The notes under the pieces are model-generated. The model was not told the DNA's origin, ran no database searches, and saw nothing but the letters and a program-made list of their open reading frames with translations. This document shows positions 5,536-9,625 of a DNA stretch of 33,353 bases, piece by piece. Origin of the DNA: a virus (Duplodnaviria > Heunggongvirae > Uroviricota > Caudoviricetes); the IMG/VR virus record IMGVR_UViG_2874951433_000004, one strand, 5' to 3'. Both the position numbers and the translations under genes were made by a program. Position 1 is the stretch's first letter, and every line of letters begins with the position of its first letter.

Positions 5536-6246
5536 ATGACAAACGATTTATATATTAACGGTAAAAAGGTTGATAGCTTCGGTGACTGGTCGCCACAGAC
5601 TGAACATCCGCTACATATTATTCAGCGTCAAGAGCATGACAAGCGTATTGAGCTTGAGCAATCGCTAAGGATGTCACCAAAGGAAATTACCTTTGTGTCT
5701 CCTGAACCTCAAGAGATGCCTGATATTTGCAAGGGTGAAGCACTATTTAATCTTGAACGTGAATATTACCCACTGCTGAAAGAACAATGTATTAAACTTG
5801 ATGATGCTTACAGCAAAGTTACCCTGATGCAATCAGCTATTGAGCCGTCAGAATTTGAGATTCAGGATGAATTGTCACAGAAACTATTTGTCTATTACCA
5901 ATATGAAGACAATGATGGTTTTGGTACTTTTCCAGAAAACATCCCAGACGTGATTAATAATCTTCCTGATGGATATCGAATTGTGAAGATGGTTAAAGCT
6001 TCAAGAGGTGCTGGTCAGTTTATTTACATGACCAATAAGAGCGATGAAGAACTCTGTGAACTTGCTAAACAGAACATTTTAGCATCACGTAACAAGCAAC
6101 TTGATAATGTTAAGTTGTATCTCTCAAGAGAGCTTCAGGCTATGAAAGACCTTGTTAGTGAATATGAGTCGCAGAAGAAGGTTGCTATGCAGGCTGATAT
6201 TGAGCAGCTTACGAAGATTTCTCAGAAGTATGCAAAGGCACTTTAA
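5536..6246 (+). CDS. hypothetical protein (positionally upstream of a tape-measure-like gene)
   Basis: ORF track 236 aa; AGAGGA ahead of the ATG; no family recognised. Confidence 0.55.
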   Translation: MTNDLYINGKKVDSFGDWSPQTEHPLHIIQRQEHDKRIELEQSLRMSPKEITFVSPEPQEMPDICKGEALFNLEREYYPLLKEQCIKLDDAYSKVTLMQSAIEPSEFEIQDELSQKLFVYYQYEDNDGFGTFPENIPDVINNLPDGYRIVKMVKASRGAGQFIYMTNKSDEELCELAKQNILASRNKQLDNVKLYLSRELQAMKDLVSEYESQKKVAMQADIEQLTKISQKYAKAL

Positions 6247-6269
6247 CTATGAATTAAAAGAGATGATTA

Positions 6270-6479
6270 ATGTTTGAAGAACGTTTAGAGACTATTCGGT
6301 CTGTTTGTGAAAACTTAAAGTTACAAGCCAATCCAGCCTTAAGAATTAAAAACAAACGTCAAGTTATCACCTCACACAAACCAAAAACACGCAAGATTCC
6401 AAAGTGGTGTATTGACCGTATTCCTTCTGATGCTCAAATCATAGGTGAAACGGAATTACATTATCTTGTCCGACATTAA
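6270..6479 (+). CDS. hypothetical small basic protein
   Basis: ORF track 69 aa; K/R-rich. Confidence 0.4.
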   Translation: MFEERLETIRSVCENLKLQANPALRIKNKRQVITSHKPKTRKIPKWCIDRIPSDAQIIGETELHYLVRH

Positions 6480-6532
6480 TTTGAGATTAGCTTCTAATCG
6501 AATCTAATAGAATTGGTTGGGTAAAAATCAAC

Positions 6533-6573
6533 GGGAGAGATTATCGAGTGACATCGGTAGCTCTCCCTTTTTT
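6533..6573 (+). terminator. terminator-like hairpin (gggagag ... ctctccc followed by T6)
   Basis: 7-bp GC-containing stem 6533-6539 / 6561-6567 with a 21-nt loop, then tttttt at 6568-6573. Confidence 0.4.
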
Positions 6574-6784
6574 GTATATGAGATAGTCTTCTATCGAATC
6601 CTATGTGCTACGTGATGATTCGGATAAGAATTATCCTCATGAAATCTGTAAAGCTAATACCCACACTGAAAAATAGAATTTACGTACAACACGCTTAAAG
6701 AGGTGAAAAATATGAATAGCACAGTTTAAAGTTGATGACTTCCTGATTGAGTTAAGTTTTAACTCTCAGAAAGTTTTAAAAGGC

Positions 6785-8755
6785 TTGGAAAAAGCCGAGA
6801 AACAAACAATGCAGGTAGCATCACGAATTGAGAAGCGACTAAATAAAGCTTTTAAAGTTAATCCTGCGCCTTTAAATGACTCTCTCAAACTAATGGAAAA
6901 GAATGTCGATAAGACTGTTTCCAAGATTGAGCAGCGTCTTAAAAACACTAGAGCGTTTAAGATTAAAACGGAAATTGAGGATACTTTAAAGCCACTTAGA
7001 CAGCCAAGACAGCCACGAATTAGCGGCAACAGAGCAATCACAGCGGCTTACTCAGCTAATATGTCTAAGCTAAAAGGCTTTGACCCTATTTTGCAGAAAT
7101 ACATCAAATCTCAGTTTTACGGGCTATCTGCTAAAGCCGGGTCAATGGATTCTTCAAAATTCAATGAGAAGTTAGCTCAGTTAAACGCTTCAGTCAGAGA
7201 AGCAATTGCTAAAGCCAGAGGTCATACATCCACCAGCATTAATGGTGACAGAGCAGCTAATAGTCTTGATAACCTGTCTTCAGCAGCAGTTAAAACAGCA
7301 GGTGCATTTATCTCAATGCAGGCTGTATTAGCCAGTTATCAGAAGATTATGGAAATTGGTTTACAGCGTGCAAGTGCTGAACGTTCAATTGATTTCGTAT
7401 TTGATAAAGATGCAGGTCAAGTAAAAGAGTTCACAAAGTCATTAGCTCAAACAACGGGTTTAGATATCGCTGAACTGCAATCACAGTTTGCTGGTTTTGG
7501 TGCTTCAGCTAAAGAGTCTATGGGTATTCAAGGTTCTGAAGAACTTTTTAGAAATATGATTGGCTATTCTCGTTTAATGGGTCGAAGTGAGGAAGAGATT
7601 AAGCGAGCATTAACAGCATTATCACAGATGGCTGGTAAGGGTCAGATTATGGCTGAAGAGCTTAAGGGGCAACTGGCTGAAGCTGTTCCTGGTATGGTTC
7701 AGGTATTCGCTAAAGCAACCGGAAAGAGTGAACAGGAATTATTTGATGCCATGAAGAAGGGGGCTTTAAAATCTGCCGATACTCTTCAGAAGGTCACTCA
7801 GGAACTGAATAGACAAATCACCGCTAAAGGTGGCTGGAAAGCCATTTCAGAAAGTACACAGGCACAACTAGGGAACCTGAAAAACGCTTGGAATACCACG
7901 CTTGATAGTATCTTCAGAGGTTCTGAAAATGGTCTGCAAGATTTCACACGAAGCCTAACAACGCTTTTAAACAGTTTAGGTGGAAGCGGTAAAAGTCTTG
8001 GTGAATCTCTTGGTAGTCTCATGACTTCTATGTCAAGTGGTGTGGATAGCCTGACCGATATCAGTTACAGAGTGAGAGGTTTCTTTGATGAGGTGACATT
8101 GGCTTATCGTGGTTTAACCGATGAACAAAAGAAAGTAGTTGATGCTTTAGGTTCTGGCTTGATTAATAGTTTAAAAGTCTTGGCTGGTGTTATTGCTGTA
8201 AATAAAGTTGTTGGTGTAACCAGAAGTATTTACGGGCTTATGACTGCTATCACAAGATTAGGTCAGGTTGCTGATACTACAGCGGATAACGTGAATAGAA
8301 AGAATGGGAAACCATCAAGACTAAACCCTATGAATATGCTATTAGCTGGTAGTGCTATCTATGCAGGTTATGAAAGATTAGCTTCTACACCTGAACGAAT
8401 GGAAGCACAAGCTAAATTACCAGAGCTAGCTAAAGAGTCTGGACTTAAACCAGTGTTCACTATGGACGATGTTAAAGGTTGGTTTAGTAGTGCAGCTGAT
8501 AAAATTGCTAACTTCCAGCATCCAGAATTAAACAACATTAAGCAAGATTCAGCATTAACGAGTGCAGATATCCAAAGCCTGAGAGATGAAATTAGTGCTT
8601 TGAGCAAACGTATTCAGGAGCCTGTGAAAGTTTCACTTGGTGGTGAAGTTGCCATTAAACCAGATGAAACCAGCTTTATGACCTTTAGCAGTAATATCTA
8701 CGACCAATACGCAGAAGCTACGCTATTAAGTTCATCATTCCCAGAAGATGATTGA
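6785..8755 (+). CDS. phage tail tape measure-like protein
   Basis: ORF track 656 aa; contains the tape-measure domain signature (...MAGKGQIMAEELKGQLAEAVPGMVQVFAKATGKSEQELFDAMKKGALKSADTL...); start uncertain (track start is TTG; a strong RBS plus ATG at 6712 is out of frame). Confidence 0.65.
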   Translation: MEKAEKQTMQVASRIEKRLNKAFKVNPAPLNDSLKLMEKNVDKTVSKIEQRLKNTRAFKIKTEIEDTLKPLRQPRQPRISGNRAITAAYSANMSKLKGFDPILQKYIKSQFYGLSAKAGSMDSSKFNEKLAQLNASVREAIAKARGHTSTSINGDRAANSLDNLSSAAVKTAGAFISMQAVLASYQKIMEIGLQRASAERSIDFVFDKDAGQVKEFTKSLAQTTGLDIAELQSQFAGFGASAKESMGIQGSEELFRNMIGYSRLMGRSEEEIKRALTALSQMAGKGQIMAEELKGQLAEAVPGMVQVFAKATGKSEQELFDAMKKGALKSADTLQKVTQELNRQITAKGGWKAISESTQAQLGNLKNAWNTTLDSIFRGSENGLQDFTRSLTTLLNSLGGSGKSLGESLGSLMTSMSSGVDSLTDISYRVRGFFDEVTLAYRGLTDEQKKVVDALGSGLINSLKVLAGVIAVNKVVGVTRSIYGLMTAITRLGQVADTTADNVNRKNGKPSRLNPMNMLLAGSAIYAGYERLASTPERMEAQAKLPELAKESGLKPVFTMDDVKGWFSSAADKIANFQHPELNNIKQDSALTSADIQSLRDEISALSKRIQEPVKVSLGGEVAIKPDETSFMTFSSNIYDQYAEATLLSSSFPEDD

Positions 8756-8851
8756 TAATAGTCGAATGCTACGTGAAATCTTCTGAACAGATATATCCAC
8801 TGAAAAATAATTTTTACGTAGCTCACGCTTAACAGAATAGGAATAACAACA

Positions 8852-9625
8852 ATGTTTGACACAAAGCAAATTAGATACTCAGGTAAAGATGGTATCTATT
8901 TTCACCTTAGAGATAATATAGATGCCTTCTTAACCTTATCAGCAACTGAACAGATGGAATATGACAGCCCTATGATGGTGACAACTCAGGCTATGCAATC
9001 GGGGCAAACTATCACTGATAATGTTCAGAGAGCACCTAAGACCATCTCTATTAGCGGTGTTGTAGTGGTTGATTCGACGGGTTCAGTTCTATTAACCAGA
9101 CAGGGGCAACTTGTAGAAACCTTTATTTCTACGGTTGAACAATGGCGAGACCAGAAGCAAATCATCACTATTGTTTGTAAAGATGGAATATCTATCACTG
9201 ATAGTATCATTACTCAGTTTAAAGCGAGTAAAGAGCATACCATTGCTAATGGTCTTCGTATTCAGATGACCTTCCAAGGTGTAGAATTTCGTTCAATCGT
9301 AGGGCAAACTGATATTTCATCTGCTACTGGCAAGACTGCTACCACGAATGATGGTGGTGCTACCAGCAAAAAGAATACAGGGAACACTACGACAAGTTTA
9401 GGTAACGGTATGTTGATGTGTCAGGAGCTATATAATCGCTCTACGAGTGAACTCACTAATGAGCAACTTCAAGCCCGTATCAATTGTGGTAGAGGTGTCA
9501 AAGTTGAGAACGGAAAAAGCACCTTCTCAGATGCCGCTAATGAGCAAGCTTCAAAGGTGCTTAATAATGCTGGTACAGGTAGTACTTTGAAGAAGTTTTC
9601 TGTTAATCCTAACAAGCGATACTGA
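8852..9625 (+). CDS. hypothetical phage tail-module protein, probably C-terminally truncated by the IS629-like insertion
   Basis: ORF track 257 aa; lies directly downstream of the tape-measure-like gene; its stop codon TGA (9623-9625) is the first three bases of the IS629-like terminus. Confidence 0.5.

What the first reader, a model, noticed from the sequence alone, without database searches (positions are those of the whole stretch)
5536..9625. A second, AT-rich tail-module fragment next to the lambdoid prophage
Seen: the 656-aa tape-measure-like protein (6785..8755) is unrelated in sequence and base composition to the lambda-type H at 19046..22088, and is flanked by genes of unknown function; the segment ends at the IS629-like element. 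Inference: the IS elements have joined part of a different, AT-rich phage or satellite to the lambdoid prophage, giving two tail modules of different ancestry in one window.
Basis: partly seen in the sequence, partly recalled or inferred. Interest (0 to 1): 0.4.

Follow-up and report, generated by a model that had tools for sequence, protein, structure and literature searches.

The report
Candidate satellite of Felix-O1-like phages
The AT-rich block is a broken copy of a small chromosomal island, common in E. coli and its relatives. The island carries its own versions of two tail parts of Felix O1-type lytic phages and a look-alike of their genome-end sequence, which fits a parasite ("satellite") of those phages that I could not find described.

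Summary
Window 1-9622 is 38% GC, against 55% for the lambdoid prophage. It encodes a true tape-measure protein (TMP) unrelated to the lambda-type H, and it ends exactly at an IS629 end.

It is not a tail-module fragment. It is a Shigella flexneri copy of a conserved ~11.4-kb integrative element, found in 483 of 5426 complete E. coli genomes and also in Salmonella and Citrobacter. Intact copies lie inside yecE or at other sites and end with a large serine recombinase. They carry only two virion genes, a TMP and the tube-initiator protein. Both are homologous to adjacent genes of strictly virulent Felix O1-like myophages (TMP about 30% identical, conserved at both ends and about 60 aa shorter; initiator 70-80%).

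The element's 2.3-kb ORF-less region contains a ~190-nt block collinear with the right end of the phages' terminal repeat. This matches what was recently shown for Vibrio PLE satellites (own TMP and hub protein, chimeric tails).

Best reading (0.6): a satellite of Felix O1-like phages, not found in the searchable literature. The window copy is disabled: recombinase deleted by IS, TMP start ATG changed to ATA, and 83 nt lost from the terminus-like block. The lambdoid neighbour is a separate yecE prophage. The ISs deleted what lay between the two; they did not bring them together.

The parts
1..834 (+). p277: a protein with predicted membrane segments and a coiled coil, sitting in the left-end variable (cargo) slot. 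The window starts at its ATG, so attL is not in the window.
   Evidence: Hits only PHROGs of unknown function. It is 91-99% identical in L001, L008, L009 and L027. In L007, L029, L017 and L019 the slot instead holds a small serine recombinase, with or without a Dam-HTH methyltransferase.
835..3180 (.). ORF-less region conserved in every family member. It contains sequence related to the terminal region of Felix O1-like phages.
   Evidence: No CDS is annotated here in any relative. Its shared k-mers rank the phages' own ORF-less region first genome-wide (z about 6). In 247 kb searched, the phage terminal-region profile hits only this region of the elements. A database-wide blastn of 50,697 phage records finds only Felixounavirus non-coding DNA for window about 2072-2147.
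1482..1640 (+). Remaining part of the block that is collinear with the right end of the phage direct terminal repeat. Conserved sub-blocks are GGGGTACTT|AACAGCC (1497, equivalent to the phage end GGGCTACC|AAGCAG), TAGATATTTTT (1525), TTTTATAAAAATTTT (1578) and CTGTACAGATTTT (1610). An 83-nt deletion at 1481/1482 removed the GATATTTT and TTTTGCAAAGGGGGTG sub-blocks.
   Evidence: Alignments of 9 elements and 6 phages. Phage record ends. The deletion is seen relative to the closest relative L027 and to L001, L008 and L009.
1918..2190 (+). Two further segments similar to the phage terminal region. 2076-2190 matches the inside of the terminal repeat. 1918-2052 matches weakly the sequence around its left end.
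   Evidence: nhmmer gives 19.0 bits, against a maximum of 0.6 in 200 dinucleotide shuffles. blastn gives 86.7% over 45 nt between window 2089-2131 and Felix O1 13018-13061. The left-end match is weak (E = 0.12) and the exact left junction is not conserved.
2908..2999 (+). Repeated ~90-nt sequence upstream of the p184 operon. A second copy lies at 4532-4659, upstream of p102, and an inverted copy lies at 1733-1795. It is a probable shared regulatory region.
   Evidence: Repeat families D3, D4, D5 and I1. The best sigma-70-like site, TTGACA-17-TAGTAT, is at 3104-3132. Function not tested.
3181..3735 (+). p184: a core protein of unknown function.
   Evidence: No hit in Pfam, PHROG, NCBIfam or PADLOC. 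It is 62-94% identical in 7 of 8 elements compared. There are 1079 homologous clusters in Escherichia, Shigella, Salmonella and Citrobacter.
3737..4024 (+). p95: a small core protein, possibly DNA-binding. The start at 3737 follows the relatives' annotation; the mechanical ORF call is 3635-4024.
   Evidence: It is 56-97% identical in 7 elements. The only family hit is a weak DndE-like one (E = 0.016).
4024..4523 (+). Cassette of p71 and a 95-aa HNH endonuclease. It behaves like a homing-endonuclease insertion.
   Evidence: Pfam HNH_3, 1.8e-8. The HNH protein is 100% identical in six elements whose neighbouring genes differ by 5-40%, and the cassette is absent from L001 and L019.
4681..4989 (+). 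p102: a small protein of unknown function, fast-evolving.
   Evidence: It is 24-93% identical among the elements and has no family hit.
5536..6246 (+). p236: the signature core protein of the element. NCBI's genome annotation (PGAP) labels it 'transposase', but no domain supports that name. It is mostly helical or coiled coil.
   Evidence: No family hit. It is present in all elements at 29-93% identity. Only 19 representatives exist among 1.84 billion proteins. AlphaFold2 gives pLDDT 56, mostly helical. It shows no similarity to the Felix O1 tail chaperones.
6270..6479 (+). p69: a small core protein of unknown function.
   Evidence: It is 46-94% identical in all elements and shows no similarity to Felix O1 ORF66.
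6635..6704 (+). Element-specific ~70-nt motif, with an 11-bp inverted repeat in the other copies. It lies just upstream of the TMP gene. A second copy lies at 8767-8836, upstream of the tube-initiator gene.
   Evidence: Repeat family D1. Conserved upstream of the tube-initiator gene in all E. coli elements. Absent from the Felix O1 and SUSP2 genomes. As RNA the fold is only moderately stable.
6716..8755 (+). Tape-measure protein, 679 codons. Its start codon is mutated from ATG to ATA in this copy.
   Evidence: Domain hits as. Overall identity to the Felix O1 and SUSP2 TMPs is 29-32%. Identity is 57-74% in the first 46 aa and 38-41% in the last 29 aa, which contain LLSSS[FY]PE[DE][DE]. Start-codon comparison.
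8852..9625 (+). Tube-initiator (Dit-like) protein, 257 aa.
   Evidence: PDB 9ndy_A at 1e-147. It is 70-74% identical to Felix O1 ORF68 and SUSP2 gp017, the gene directly after the TMP gene in those phages. Nucleotide stretches reach 91% over 112 nt.
9623..10685 (+). IS629-like element, truncated at its 3' end. It marks the right break of the element and replaces the large serine recombinase.
   Evidence: HTH_Tnp_1 and rve domains. ALIL frameshift pseudoknot at 9958-10074. 99% identical to IS copies in S. flexneri SFBU1023. Inverted repeat at 9623.
10687..11953 (-). IS600 (IS3 family). It forms the junction to the lambdoid prophage, whose rusA gene starts at 12092.
   Evidence: Domains. 99.6% identical to a copy in L020. 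Annotated as IS600 at the matching place in RMDEC332.

Best explanation
Window 1-9622 is a disabled Shigella flexneri copy of a family of ~11.4-kb integrative elements. I read these elements as satellites (molecular parasites) of strictly virulent Felix O1-like myophages (Ounavirinae). They would work much like the PLEs of Vibrio cholerae, which parasitise phage ICP1.

Shown by the sequence data:
1. Intact members insert into yecE or other sites by a large serine recombinase.
2. They carry exactly two virion genes, a tape-measure protein (TMP) and the tube-initiator protein. In the solved Felixounavirus Bas63 virion these two proteins are both part of the central hub complex at the core of the baseplate.
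3. Their ORF-less region holds a ~190-nt block collinear with the right end of the phage terminal repeat.

Inferred mechanism:
1. When a helper phage infects, the element excises.
2. It is copied or packaged through the terminus-like cis sequence, using helper enzymes.
3. It leaves in helper-built particles whose tails are assembled around the element's own TMP and initiator. The element TMP keeps the helper-compatible N- and C-termini. It is about 60 aa shorter, which predicts a tail about 9 nm shorter.
4. This probably reduces the helper's yield.

The window copy can no longer do this. Its recombinase was removed by an IS629/IS600-associated deletion, its TMP start codon is ATA, and 83 nt of the terminus-like block are missing.
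For: Element status:
- The same gene order, split yecE flanks and a 507-aa recombinase (Resolvase, Recombinase and Zn_ribbon_recom domains) occur in E. coli PEC395, KD0845, EC12 and RM19259.
- 483 of 5426 complete E. coli genomes have relatives, all chromosomal, at 78-93% identity.
- Members occur in E. albertii, Citrobacter, Salmonella and Shigella.
- A member whose marker protein is only 30% identical, at a different site (between mdtG and lpxL), keeps the order p231 / small ORF / TMP / initiator / recombinase.

Link to virulent phages:
- The initiator protein matches 299 phage records. All that I checked are Felix O1-like phages (Ounavirinae), and it is 70-74% identical to the best of them.
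- TMP and initiator are adjacent, in the same order, in Felix O1 and SUSP2.
- No other element ORF has a homologue in those genomes, apart from a weak HNH match.
- The element is 38.2% GC; Felix O1 is 39% (PMC3185647).

TMP pattern:
- Identity to the Felix O1 TMP is 57-74% in the first 46 aa, 33-35% in the central domain and 38-41% in the last 29 aa.
- In Bas63 the last 25 TMP residues dock in the hub under the initiator hexamer (PMC12609058).
- Element TMPs are 679-710 aa; phage TMPs are 742-746 aa.

Cis-sequence mimicry:
- The phage records I14.1 and Ro111lw carry exact 581- and 613-bp terminal repeats, equivalent to Felix O1 12771-13339. Both end at ...GGGCTACC.
- All 9 elements share collinear blocks across that right end. 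The Citrobacter element scores 48 bits (E = 6.5e-15), and there are no hits outside the ORF-less regions in 247 kb.
- k-mer rank, shuffle and database-wide controls agree.

Precedent:
- PLEs have a large serine recombinase, an ORF-less region and a virulent myophage helper. They encode their own TMP and baseplate hub protein and assemble chimeric tails about 10 nm shorter (PMC12987554; PMC9410903).

Decay of the window copy.
Against: - There is no direct sign of excision, replication or encapsidation. The 11.5-kb metagenome contigs have chromosomal flanks and no terminal overlap. The IMG/VR hits have isolate-genome-style identifiers and lengths of 22-50 kb, so they look like proviruses rather than packaged elements; their content was not examined. 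No phage record contains the element.
- No replication initiator, small terminase or capsid-size-redirecting protein is recognisable. It is therefore unexplained how an 11.4-kb genome would fill or resize a capsid built for 86 kb.
- The left terminal-repeat junction (TGCTA|GCCCCC) is not conserved in the elements. The mimicked block could just as well be an origin or a regulatory site.
- The terminal-repeat ends are taken from two GenBank records as deposited.
- The helper is assigned by homology only.
- The p236 model is of low confidence (pLDDT 56), so its role is unknown.
Confidence: 0.6

Rival explanations
1. A defence island that interferes with tail assembly and does not transfer itself. 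The element's TMP and initiator would act as dominant-negative decoys. They would enter the tail assembly of Felix O1-like phages and yield defective or tailless progeny, protecting the clone. The element would spread only by ordinary horizontal transfer and its recombinase.
For: The element TMP keeps helper-like termini but has a diverged middle, and the initiator is kept 70-80% identical to the phage protein. That is what a decoy needs. Blocking tail assembly is a documented defence strategy (Tai systems, PMC11364771; Rta of PLE11, PMC12987554). No packaging, replication or capsid genes are recognisable, and no encapsidated form was found.
Against: It does not explain why all nine elements, including the most divergent one, conserve a ~190-nt non-coding block collinear with the phage genome end. 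No PADLOC defence model hits any protein. In the one characterised parallel (PLE), the satellite-encoded TMP is built into transducing particles. Defence and satellite life styles are also not mutually exclusive.
Confidence: 0.2
2. An inert, decayed remnant of an unknown temperate phage, related to Felix O1 only in its tail module. On this reading everything has been lost except a recombinase and a few genes.
For: The window copy itself is clearly decaying. Several E. coli and Citrobacter copies have an IS inside the TMP gene. Most genes are uncharacterised.
Against: Random decay would not leave the same ten or so genes, in the same order and with intact reading frames. Yet that is seen in hundreds of genomes, several genera and at least three integration sites, down to 30% protein identity. 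Family members are mosaic, with TMP and initiator alleles reshuffled independently, which indicates ongoing exchange. The initiator carries stretches up to 91% identical at nucleotide level to a virulent phage. No temperate phage with this module appeared among 50,697 phage records.
Confidence: 0.08
3. One reading: IS elements fused an arbitrary piece of a foreign AT-rich phage tail module to the lambdoid prophage, so the block has no identity of its own.
For: IS629 sits exactly at the right end of the block and IS600 lies next to it. Shigella genomes are rich in IS-mediated rearrangements (L020).
Against: The block is collinear over 1-9625 with free-standing elements in IS-free contexts. Its right break is simply a deletion of the recombinase. 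Element and lambdoid prophage share the yecE locus without any IS in EC12, and the ipaH prophage type is a yecE prophage.
Confidence: 0.03

Closest known systems
[quoted passage not shown]
   Same: Both are small chromosomal islands with a large serine recombinase at one end, made up almost entirely of hypothetical genes. Both have a large ORF-less region and a small HNH nuclease gene. The inferred helper is a strictly virulent myophage. Both encode their own TMP plus a central baseplate protein, with the TMP far more diverged from the helper's than the hub or initiator protein (PLE: 20% and 41%; here about 30% and 70-80%). In both the TMP is shorter than the helper's (PMC12987554; PMC9410903).
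   Different: The element is about 11.4 kb, against 17-18 kb for PLE. No RepA_N replication protein and no recognisable tail chaperone are present. The host clade differs (Enterobacteriaceae) and so does the helper clade (Ounavirinae). The resemblance to the helper's genome end has, to my knowledge, no reported PLE counterpart. Nothing here is experimentally tested.
Felixounavirus tail core: TMP gp17 and tube-initiator gp18 of phage Bas63 (PDB 9ndy); Felix O1 ORF67 and ORF68
   Same: These are direct homologues, in the same gene order. The initiator is near full length at E = 1e-147. The TMP is conserved at the N-terminus, in the central TMP_3 domain and in the C-terminal hub-docking tail.
   Different: Here the genes are chromosomal, inside an integrative element, with separate upstream motifs in place of the phage's overlapping operon. 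The TMP is only about 30% identical and about 60 aa shorter. None of the other roughly 130 phage genes is present.
P4-like satellites of P2-like phages (Enterobacteria)
   Same: The size is similar (about 11.6 kb) and the host range overlaps. Both carry a copy of the helper's packaging or terminus sequence (P4 has the P2 cos site; this is my own knowledge).
   Different: P4 uses a tyrosine integrase, the alpha primase-helicase and the Sid/Psu/Delta proteins, and its helper is temperate. None of these proteins is detectable here. P4 encodes no tail protein.
Capsid-forming PICIs (cf-PICIs), some of which carry putative tmp genes
   Same: They are satellites in Enterobacteria that use part of a helper virion. 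tmp genes have been noted in some of them (Extended Data Fig. 10 of PMC12987554).
   Different: cf-PICIs encode capsid, portal, protease and terminase genes and steal tails. This element has no capsid or packaging genes and instead carries tail-core genes.
Tail-assembly interference defences (Tai; Rta of PLE11)
   Same: They target the tail-assembly step of an infecting phage and are carried on mobile elements.
   Different: Those are small non-structural inhibitor proteins. Here the candidate agents are full-length structural homologues. No homology to these systems was tested or found.

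Membership tests
Tape-measure protein (Pfam PF20155 TMP_3 / TIGR02675) | Score above the curated cut-off for the TMP domain | tested here: met
   TMP_3 scores 68.4 bits against a cut-off of 41. TIGR02675 scores 49.4 against 21.35. phrog_4036 hits at 8e-67.
Tube-initiator / Dit-like tail protein (PF21821; Bas63 gp18) | Full-length homology to a structurally defined tube initiator | tested here: met
   PF21821 scores 63.6 bits against a cut-off of 24.2. PDB 9ndy_A matches at E = 1e-147 over residues 1-256.
PLE (V. cholerae satellites) | Large serine recombinase (or other integrase) at the end of the element | tested here: met
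   Met in intact relatives: a 507-aa protein with Resolvase, Recombinase and Zn_ribbon_recom domains. In the window copy the gene is deleted.
PLE (V. cholerae satellites) | Homology to PLE marker proteins (RepA, CapR, NixI, LidI, TcaP and others) | not testable with these tools
   PLE protein sequences and profiles are not in the libraries offered. The only indirect check is that no RepA_N or other Pfam domain was found in the unknown proteins.
PLE (V. cholerae satellites) | Own TMP and central baseplate protein related to those of a virulent myophage helper | tested here: met
   compared with PMC12987554.
PLE (V. cholerae satellites) | Excision, replication and transduction triggered by helper infection, with restriction of the helper | not testable with these tools
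   This needs experiments. The searches for excised or packaged forms were negative or uninformative.
P4-like satellites | Tyrosine integrase, alpha primase-helicase, Sid/Psu/Delta proteins and a cos site | tested here: not met
   None of these domains was found in any ORF. The recombinase is of the serine type.
PICI / cf-PICI | Tyrosine integrase, AlpA, primase-replicase, and a terS or capsid module | tested here: not met
   No such domains were found.
Defective prophage of a Felix O1-like or lambdoid phage | Other phage genes (capsid, sheath, tube, lysis, replication) or collinearity with a phage genome beyond the two tail genes | tested here: not met
   tblastn of every stop-to-stop ORF against the full Felix O1 and SUSP2 genomes hits only the TMP, the initiator and, weakly, the HNH. 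blastn against 50,697 phage records gives hits covering no more than 1% of the query.
Known anti-phage defence systems (PADLOC) | A hit to a defence-system protein model | tested here: not met
   There are no significant hits; the best E-value is 0.003, to a model of unknown function.
Transposase (the label NCBI's annotation, PGAP, gives p236) | A recognisable transposase or integrase catalytic domain | tested here: not met
   No Pfam or NCBIfam hit. A PDB profile search finds nothing relevant. The AlphaFold2 model is helical and of low confidence.

The most novel reading that the evidence does not exclude
Enterobacteria (about 9% of complete E. coli genomes, plus Shigella, Salmonella and Citrobacter) harbour a so far undescribed family of satellites that parasitise strictly virulent Felix O1-like myophages. 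These elements build chimeric tails around their own tape-measure and tube-initiator proteins. They are processed or packaged through a copy of the helper's terminal-repeat end. They would be the first counterpart of PLE found outside Vibrio, and the first satellite of a virulent phage in E. coli.
Probability: 0.55. Interest if true: 0.8.

Novelty: new variant of a known kind. Interest (0 to 1): 0.68.

Why it matters
Satellites of strictly lytic phages are so far known essentially from one system, the PLEs of Vibrio cholerae and phage ICP1. That satellites bring their own tape-measure protein was reported only in 2026.

An analogous element in E. coli, Shigella and Salmonella would show that this strategy is general. 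It would provide a genetically tractable model. It would also matter in practice, because Felix O1-like phages are used for Salmonella typing, biocontrol and phage therapy. A resident element that hijacks or blocks them could explain strain-specific resistance and could spread by the therapy phage itself.

It also predicts where the packaging or cleavage signal of Felix O1-like genomes lies, namely in the conserved blocks around GGGCTACC|AAGCAG.

For the window itself the message is modest. It holds a dead copy of the element next to an unrelated yecE prophage.

Tried and rejected
1. The 236-aa and 69-aa proteins upstream of the TMP as tail-assembly chaperones. hhalign and BLASTP against Felix O1 ORF65 and ORF66 found nothing.
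2. A structure-based function for p236. The AlphaFold2 model has pLDDT 56, too poor for a fold search. A PDB profile search found nothing relevant.
3. The 70-nt motif upstream of the TMP and initiator genes as a shared phage promoter. It is absent from Felix O1 and SUSP2, and its RNA fold is only marginal.
4. Sigma-70 promoter and terminator scans. The counts were not above chance.
5. Rfam. The only hit is the IS3 ALIL frameshift pseudoknot inside IS629.
6. Evidence for free or packaged element DNA.
   - The six IMG/VR hits have isolate-genome-style identifiers and lengths of 22-50 kb, so they look like proviruses; I did not inspect their content.
   - Two 11.5-kb metagenome contigs looked promising, but they carry chromosomal flanks and have no terminal overlap.
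   - No GenBank phage record contains the element.
7. Conservation of the left terminal-repeat junction in the elements. Only weak similarity was found, and the junction itself is not conserved.
8. A supposed 61-nt deletion upstream of the window's initiator gene. It turned out to be an allelic variant shared with L027.
9. The 127-bp 'repeat_region' of phage PC79-13 as a terminal repeat. It is probably an assembly overlap and was not used.
10. A profile of p236 homologues for a genome-collection scan.
11. Literature searches for any link between Felix O1, Felixounavirus or Ounavirinae and satellites. None was found.

Full report
**1. What is in the window**

The window has two compositional parts. 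Positions 1-9622 are 38.2% GC. The lambdoid part, 11954-31000, is 54.7% GC.

All ORFs of the AT-rich part lie on the + strand:

| Coordinates | Product |
|---|---|
| 1-834 | p277 |
| 835-3180 | no ORF (2.3 kb) |
| 3181-3735 | p184 |
| 3737-4024 | p95 |
| 4024-4239 | p71 |
| 4236-4523 | 95-aa HNH endonuclease |
| 4681-4989 | p102 |
| 5536-6246 | p236 |
| 6270-6479 | p69 |
| 6716/6785-8755 | tape-measure protein (TMP) |
| 8852-9625 | Dit-like protein |

- The TMP call is solid: Pfam TMP_3 8.7e-19, TIGR02675 4e-13, phrog_4036 8e-67.
- The TMP has no significant similarity to the lambda-type H ORF in the same window.
- The block ends at the IS629 inverted repeat at 9623, whose first three bases (TGA) serve as the stop codon of the last gene.
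- Exact protein look-ups place the window in Shigella flexneri serotype 5 genomes. The accessions ABF04050 and ABF04054 and the UniProt tag SHIFM point there.

**2. It is a free-standing integrative element, not a module fragment**

- Megablast against 5426 complete E. coli genomes found no copy above 95% identity. It found many collinear relatives at 78-93% identity.
- In PEC395, KD0845, EC12 and RM19259 the homologous ~11.4-kb segment splits yecE (a DUF72 gene) in two. It has the same gene order as the window. It ends, 14 nt after the Dit-like gene, with a convergent 507-aa large serine recombinase carrying Resolvase, Recombinase and Zn_ribbon_recom domains.
- 483 of 5426 genomes (8.9%) carry a relative of window 5000-9625. 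All are chromosomal, with up to four places per genome.
- Homologues of p236 and p184 occur in E. coli, E. albertii, E. fergusonii, E. marmotae, Shigella, Salmonella and Citrobacter.
- Related loci were recovered from E. albertii, Citrobacter sp. ANG330 and another S. flexneri.
- A very distant member (p236 homologue 30% identical, TMP about 42%) lies between mdtG and lpxL in another enterobacterial genome. It still has the order small resolvase / Dam-HTH / three ORFs / p231 / small ORF / TMP / Dit-like / large serine recombinase.
- A gene-by-gene table gives the core: p184, p95, p102, p236, p69, TMP, Dit-like protein and the recombinase.
- The left end is a variable slot. It holds either p277 or a small serine recombinase, with or without a Dam methyltransferase.
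- None of the unknown proteins hits Pfam, PHROGs, NCBIfam or PADLOC.
- p236 is called 'transposase' by PGAP (NCBI's genome annotation pipeline), with no domain support. Its family has only 19 representatives among 1.84 billion proteins.

**3. The two tail genes come from a strictly virulent phage lineage**

- tblastn of the Dit-like protein against 50,697 phage records hits 299 records. Those listed by name are Felix O1-like phages (Ounavirinae: Felixounavirus, Suspvirus and relatives on Escherichia, Salmonella, Shigella, Citrobacter and Erwinia). Identity is 70-74% over the full length.
- The best TMP hits are the TMPs of the same phages, at about 30% identity.
- In Felix O1 and SUSP2 the two genes are adjacent and in the same order: ORF67 and ORF68, and gp016 and gp017.
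- A profile of the Dit-like proteins matches PDB 9ndy_A, 'tube initiator protein gp018', at 1e-147.
- In the cryo-EM structure of the Felixounavirus Bas63, the initiator (gp18) forms the hexamer that sits on the hub. The last 25 residues of the TMP (gp17) dock in the hub (PMC12609058).
- Translating every stop-to-stop ORF of window 1-9700 against the complete Felix O1 and SUSP2 genomes gave only three matches: the TMP, the initiator and a weak HNH hit.

The element therefore holds exactly the two proteins at the core of the tail, and nothing else from a roughly 130-gene phage. That Felix O1-like phages are virulent and have no integration module is established knowledge. The element cannot be a remnant of such a prophage.

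**4. The pattern of conservation fits a part that must plug into someone else's machine**

- Identity of the element TMPs to the Felix O1 TMP, by segment (alignment A1: four element TMPs and the Felix O1 and SUSP2 TMPs):

| TMP segment | Identity |
|---|---|
| First 46 residues | 57-74% |
| Following segment | 14-20% |
| Central TMP_3 domain | 33-35% |
| Next segment | about 20% |
| Last 29 residues (...LLSSS[FY]PE[DE][DE]) | 38-41% |

- Element TMPs are 679-710 aa. Phage TMPs are 742-746 aa.
- The initiator stays at 68-80% identity to the phage proteins. That is about as close as element copies are to each other (71-90%). Nucleotide stretches reach 91% identity over 112 nt with Felix O1.
- Element TMPs form their own deep clade.
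- TMP and initiator alleles are reshuffled independently. The window's initiator is 93% identical to those of L027 and E. albertii, while the TMPs are only 41-50% identical.

**5. The ORF-less region resembles the phage genome end**

- Every family member has an unannotated 2.3-2.6 kb stretch after the first gene.
- Its k-mers single out one place in each phage genome, namely the phage's own 1.6-kb ORF-less region (Felix O1 12305-13928; SUSP2 70740-72407). That place ranks first genome-wide, with z about 6.
- That phage region contains the physical genome ends. Several Felixounavirus records start at the position equivalent to Felix O1 12771.
- Two of them, I14.1 and Ro111lw, carry exact terminal duplications of 581 and 613 bp. 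These are equivalent to Felix O1 12771-13339. They start at GCCCCCTTAAC and end at ...GTTAAGGGCTACC. Direct terminal repeats were reported for the I14.1 set by PhageTerm (PMC11737134).
- I built a profile of six phage terminal regions and searched 247 kb holding nine elements, their flanks and the whole window. It hits only the elements' ORF-less regions.
- The strongest hits span the right repeat end: Citrobacter element 48 bits (E = 6.5e-15), L029 1e-9, and the distant L017 2e-5.
- The multiple alignment shows collinear invariant blocks with conserved spacing over about 190 nt. In order they are GATATTTT, TTTTGCAAAGGG, (G)TAC..A(A/G)C(A/G)G (the phage end lies inside this one), (C/T)AGATATTTT, TTTTATAAAAA(T/A)TTT and C(T/A)(G/A)TA(C/T)AG.
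- Controls agree:
  - 200 dinucleotide shuffles of the window's region reach at most 0.6 bits, against 19.0 observed.
  - An unbiased blastn of window 840-8800 against all phage records returns, apart from a short TMP stretch, only Felixounavirus non-coding DNA.
- The exact left junction is not conserved, and similarity around it is weak.
- Whether the mimicked block is a terminase recognition or cleavage site, an origin, or both cannot be decided from sequence.

**6. Comparison with what is known**

- The closest system in mechanism is PLE of Vibrio cholerae. PLEs are 17-18-kb islands with a large serine recombinase, a large ORF-less region and an HNH nickase. They parasitise the virulent myophage ICP1 (PMC9410903).
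- A 2026 paper showed that PLEs encode their own TMP, tail chaperone and baseplate hub protein, at 20%, 20% and 41% identity to ICP1. They assemble chimeric tails about 10 nm shorter. [quoted passage not shown]
- PLEs are described as specific to V. cholerae or Vibrio (PMC10085698).
- Full-text searches linking Felix O1, Felixounavirus or Ounavirinae with satellites returned nothing relevant.
- Membership in PLE, P4-like or PICI families is not supported:
  - The P4 and PICI hallmark domains are absent.
  - PLE protein homology could not be tested.

I therefore classify the family as a new variant of a known kind: a new satellite-like family that appears to work like PLE.

**7. Mechanism, and how sure each step is**

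Shown:
- The element's structure, its distribution and its recombinase.
- The homology and conservation pattern of the TMP and the initiator.
- The collinear terminus-like block.

Inferred:
- Helper infection triggers excision.
- The helper's replication or packaging enzymes act on the terminus-like block.
- Particles carry tails built on the element's TMP and initiator. The predicted tail is about 9 nm shorter, from 63 residues at about 0.15 nm each. This rests on the standard TMP length rule and the PLE11 precedent.
- The helper's yield suffers.

Open problems:
- No replication, terminase or capsid-size gene is recognisable.
- 11.4 kb is far below the helper's 86-kb capsid content.
- No excised or packaged DNA was found.
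- The helical p236, which is about the size of external scaffolds such as P4 Sid (my recollection, untested), is a candidate for capsid redirection. Its model is poor.

The main rival is a defence-only island whose TMP and initiator poison tail assembly (0.2). That reading explains the proteins but not the conserved cis block. A decayed-prophage reading (0.08) is contradicted by the constancy of the gene set across genera and integration sites.

**8. The window copy and its neighbour**

Damage in the window copy:
- It lacks the recombinase. IS629 starts at the initiator's stop codon.
- The TMP start codon is ATA where relatives have ATG behind an identical ribosome-binding site.
- 83 nt are missing at 1481/1482. 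They included the GATATTTT and TTTTGCAAAGGGGGTG blocks present in its closest relative L027 (97% identical on the left side) and in all other elements.

It is thus an immobile, probably non-functional remnant, which fits Shigella genome decay.

The neighbouring prophage:
- To the right come IS629 (truncated), IS600, then lambdoid rusA, Q and four tRNA genes. An IS110-family transposase sits where the lysis, terminase and head genes should be. After it come FI, Z, U, V, G, T, H ... J and ipaH.
- The same ipaH prophage type in EIEC RMDEC332 is complete and ends at a yecE remnant next to yecD.
- In E. coli EC12 an intact element and a lambdoid prophage lie side by side in yecE without any IS.

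The juxtaposition therefore reflects two elements sharing one target gene. The ISs only deleted the stretch between them.

**9. Verdict**

The feature is more specific and more interesting than 'a second tail-module fragment'. It is a dead copy of a widespread, apparently undescribed satellite-like element tied to Felix O1-like lytic phages. All functional claims remain computational.

Noticed in passing
window 19016-22088: The lambda-type tape-measure gene H appears as two overlapping ORFs in different frames (19016-20236 and 20028-22088). The homologous gene in EIEC RMDEC332 is one 1013-aa CDS (L031 31906-34947). This suggests a frameshift, so H is probably a pseudogene here.
   Followed up: partly
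window 14321-15517 (- strand): An IS110-family transposase (DEDD_Tnp_IS110 and Transposase_20 domains) lies between the prophage tRNA cluster and gene FI. In RMDEC332 that position holds the holin, lysozyme, terminase, portal, protease and capsid genes. This is a second IS-associated deletion inside the lambdoid prophage.
   Followed up: partly
window 13314-13623: Four tRNA genes lie downstream of the Q antiterminator. ARAGORN calls them Met(CAT), Arg(TCT), Thr(TGT) and Gly(TCC). The first is annotated tRNA-Ile in the RMDEC332 homologue, so it is probably a CAU tRNA read as Ile.
   Followed up: no
window 30755-32218 (- strand); 33105-33353: An ipaH-type E3 ubiquitin ligase (NEL domain plus LRRs) sits at the prophage end. 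The ORF is 487 aa here, against a 583-aa ipaHd in RMDEC332. The last ORF of the window matches the position of a DinI-like gene just before the yecE remnant.
   Followed up: partly
window 9958-10074: The Rfam ALIL pseudoknot (115.8 bits) lies inside IS629. It is the programmed-frameshift signal of IS3-family transposases.
   Followed up: yes
window 4024-4523: The p71 and HNH cassette is 92-100% identical at protein level (HNH 100%) in six elements whose neighbouring genes differ by 5-40%. It is missing from two other elements. It behaves like a homing endonuclease spreading among elements.
   Followed up: partly
window 2908-2999, 4532-4659, 1733-1795: A ~90-nt sequence is repeated upstream of the p184 and p102 gene groups, with a third, inverted copy inside the ORF-less region. 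It may be a common operator or promoter. It was not analysed further.
   Followed up: no
window 6635-6704 and 8767-8836: An element-specific ~70-nt motif precedes the TMP and initiator genes. In the other copies it contains an 11-bp inverted repeat, GCTACGTGAAA ... TTTTACGTAGC. It is absent from the phages. The left arm is degenerate in the window's TMP-upstream copy.
   Followed up: partly
L013/L014 (PP892526.1, Escherichia phage vB_EcoM_I14.1): The record's taxonomy line says Tequintavirus (Demerecviridae). However, its ends are about 90% identical to the Felix O1 terminal region and its length is 89 kb. The taxonomy label looks wrong.
   Followed up: no
L020 (S. flexneri SFBU1023, CP182556.1) about 7260-14907: Another S. 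flexneri genome holds scrambled pieces of a related element (an inverted TMP fragment at 89% identity and initiator fragments), interleaved with two IS629 copies and IS600. This looks like an independent route of IS-driven decay.
   Followed up: no
L001 19908-19925 and about 31230-31250 (E. coli PEC395): The ends of the intact element carry an imperfect inverted repeat, TCTAAATACACC ... GGTGTATTTAAAC, next to the split yecE halves. It is a likely part of the serine-recombinase attachment sites.
   Followed up: partly
L019 5868-9908 (Citrobacter sp. ANG330); several E. coli hits: The TMP gene of the element is repeatedly interrupted by insertion sequences: an IS21/IS100-type element in several E. 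coli genomes, a two-ORF insertion that I take to be IS21-type in L019 (its domains were not checked), and IS2 in other E. coli genomes.
   Followed up: no
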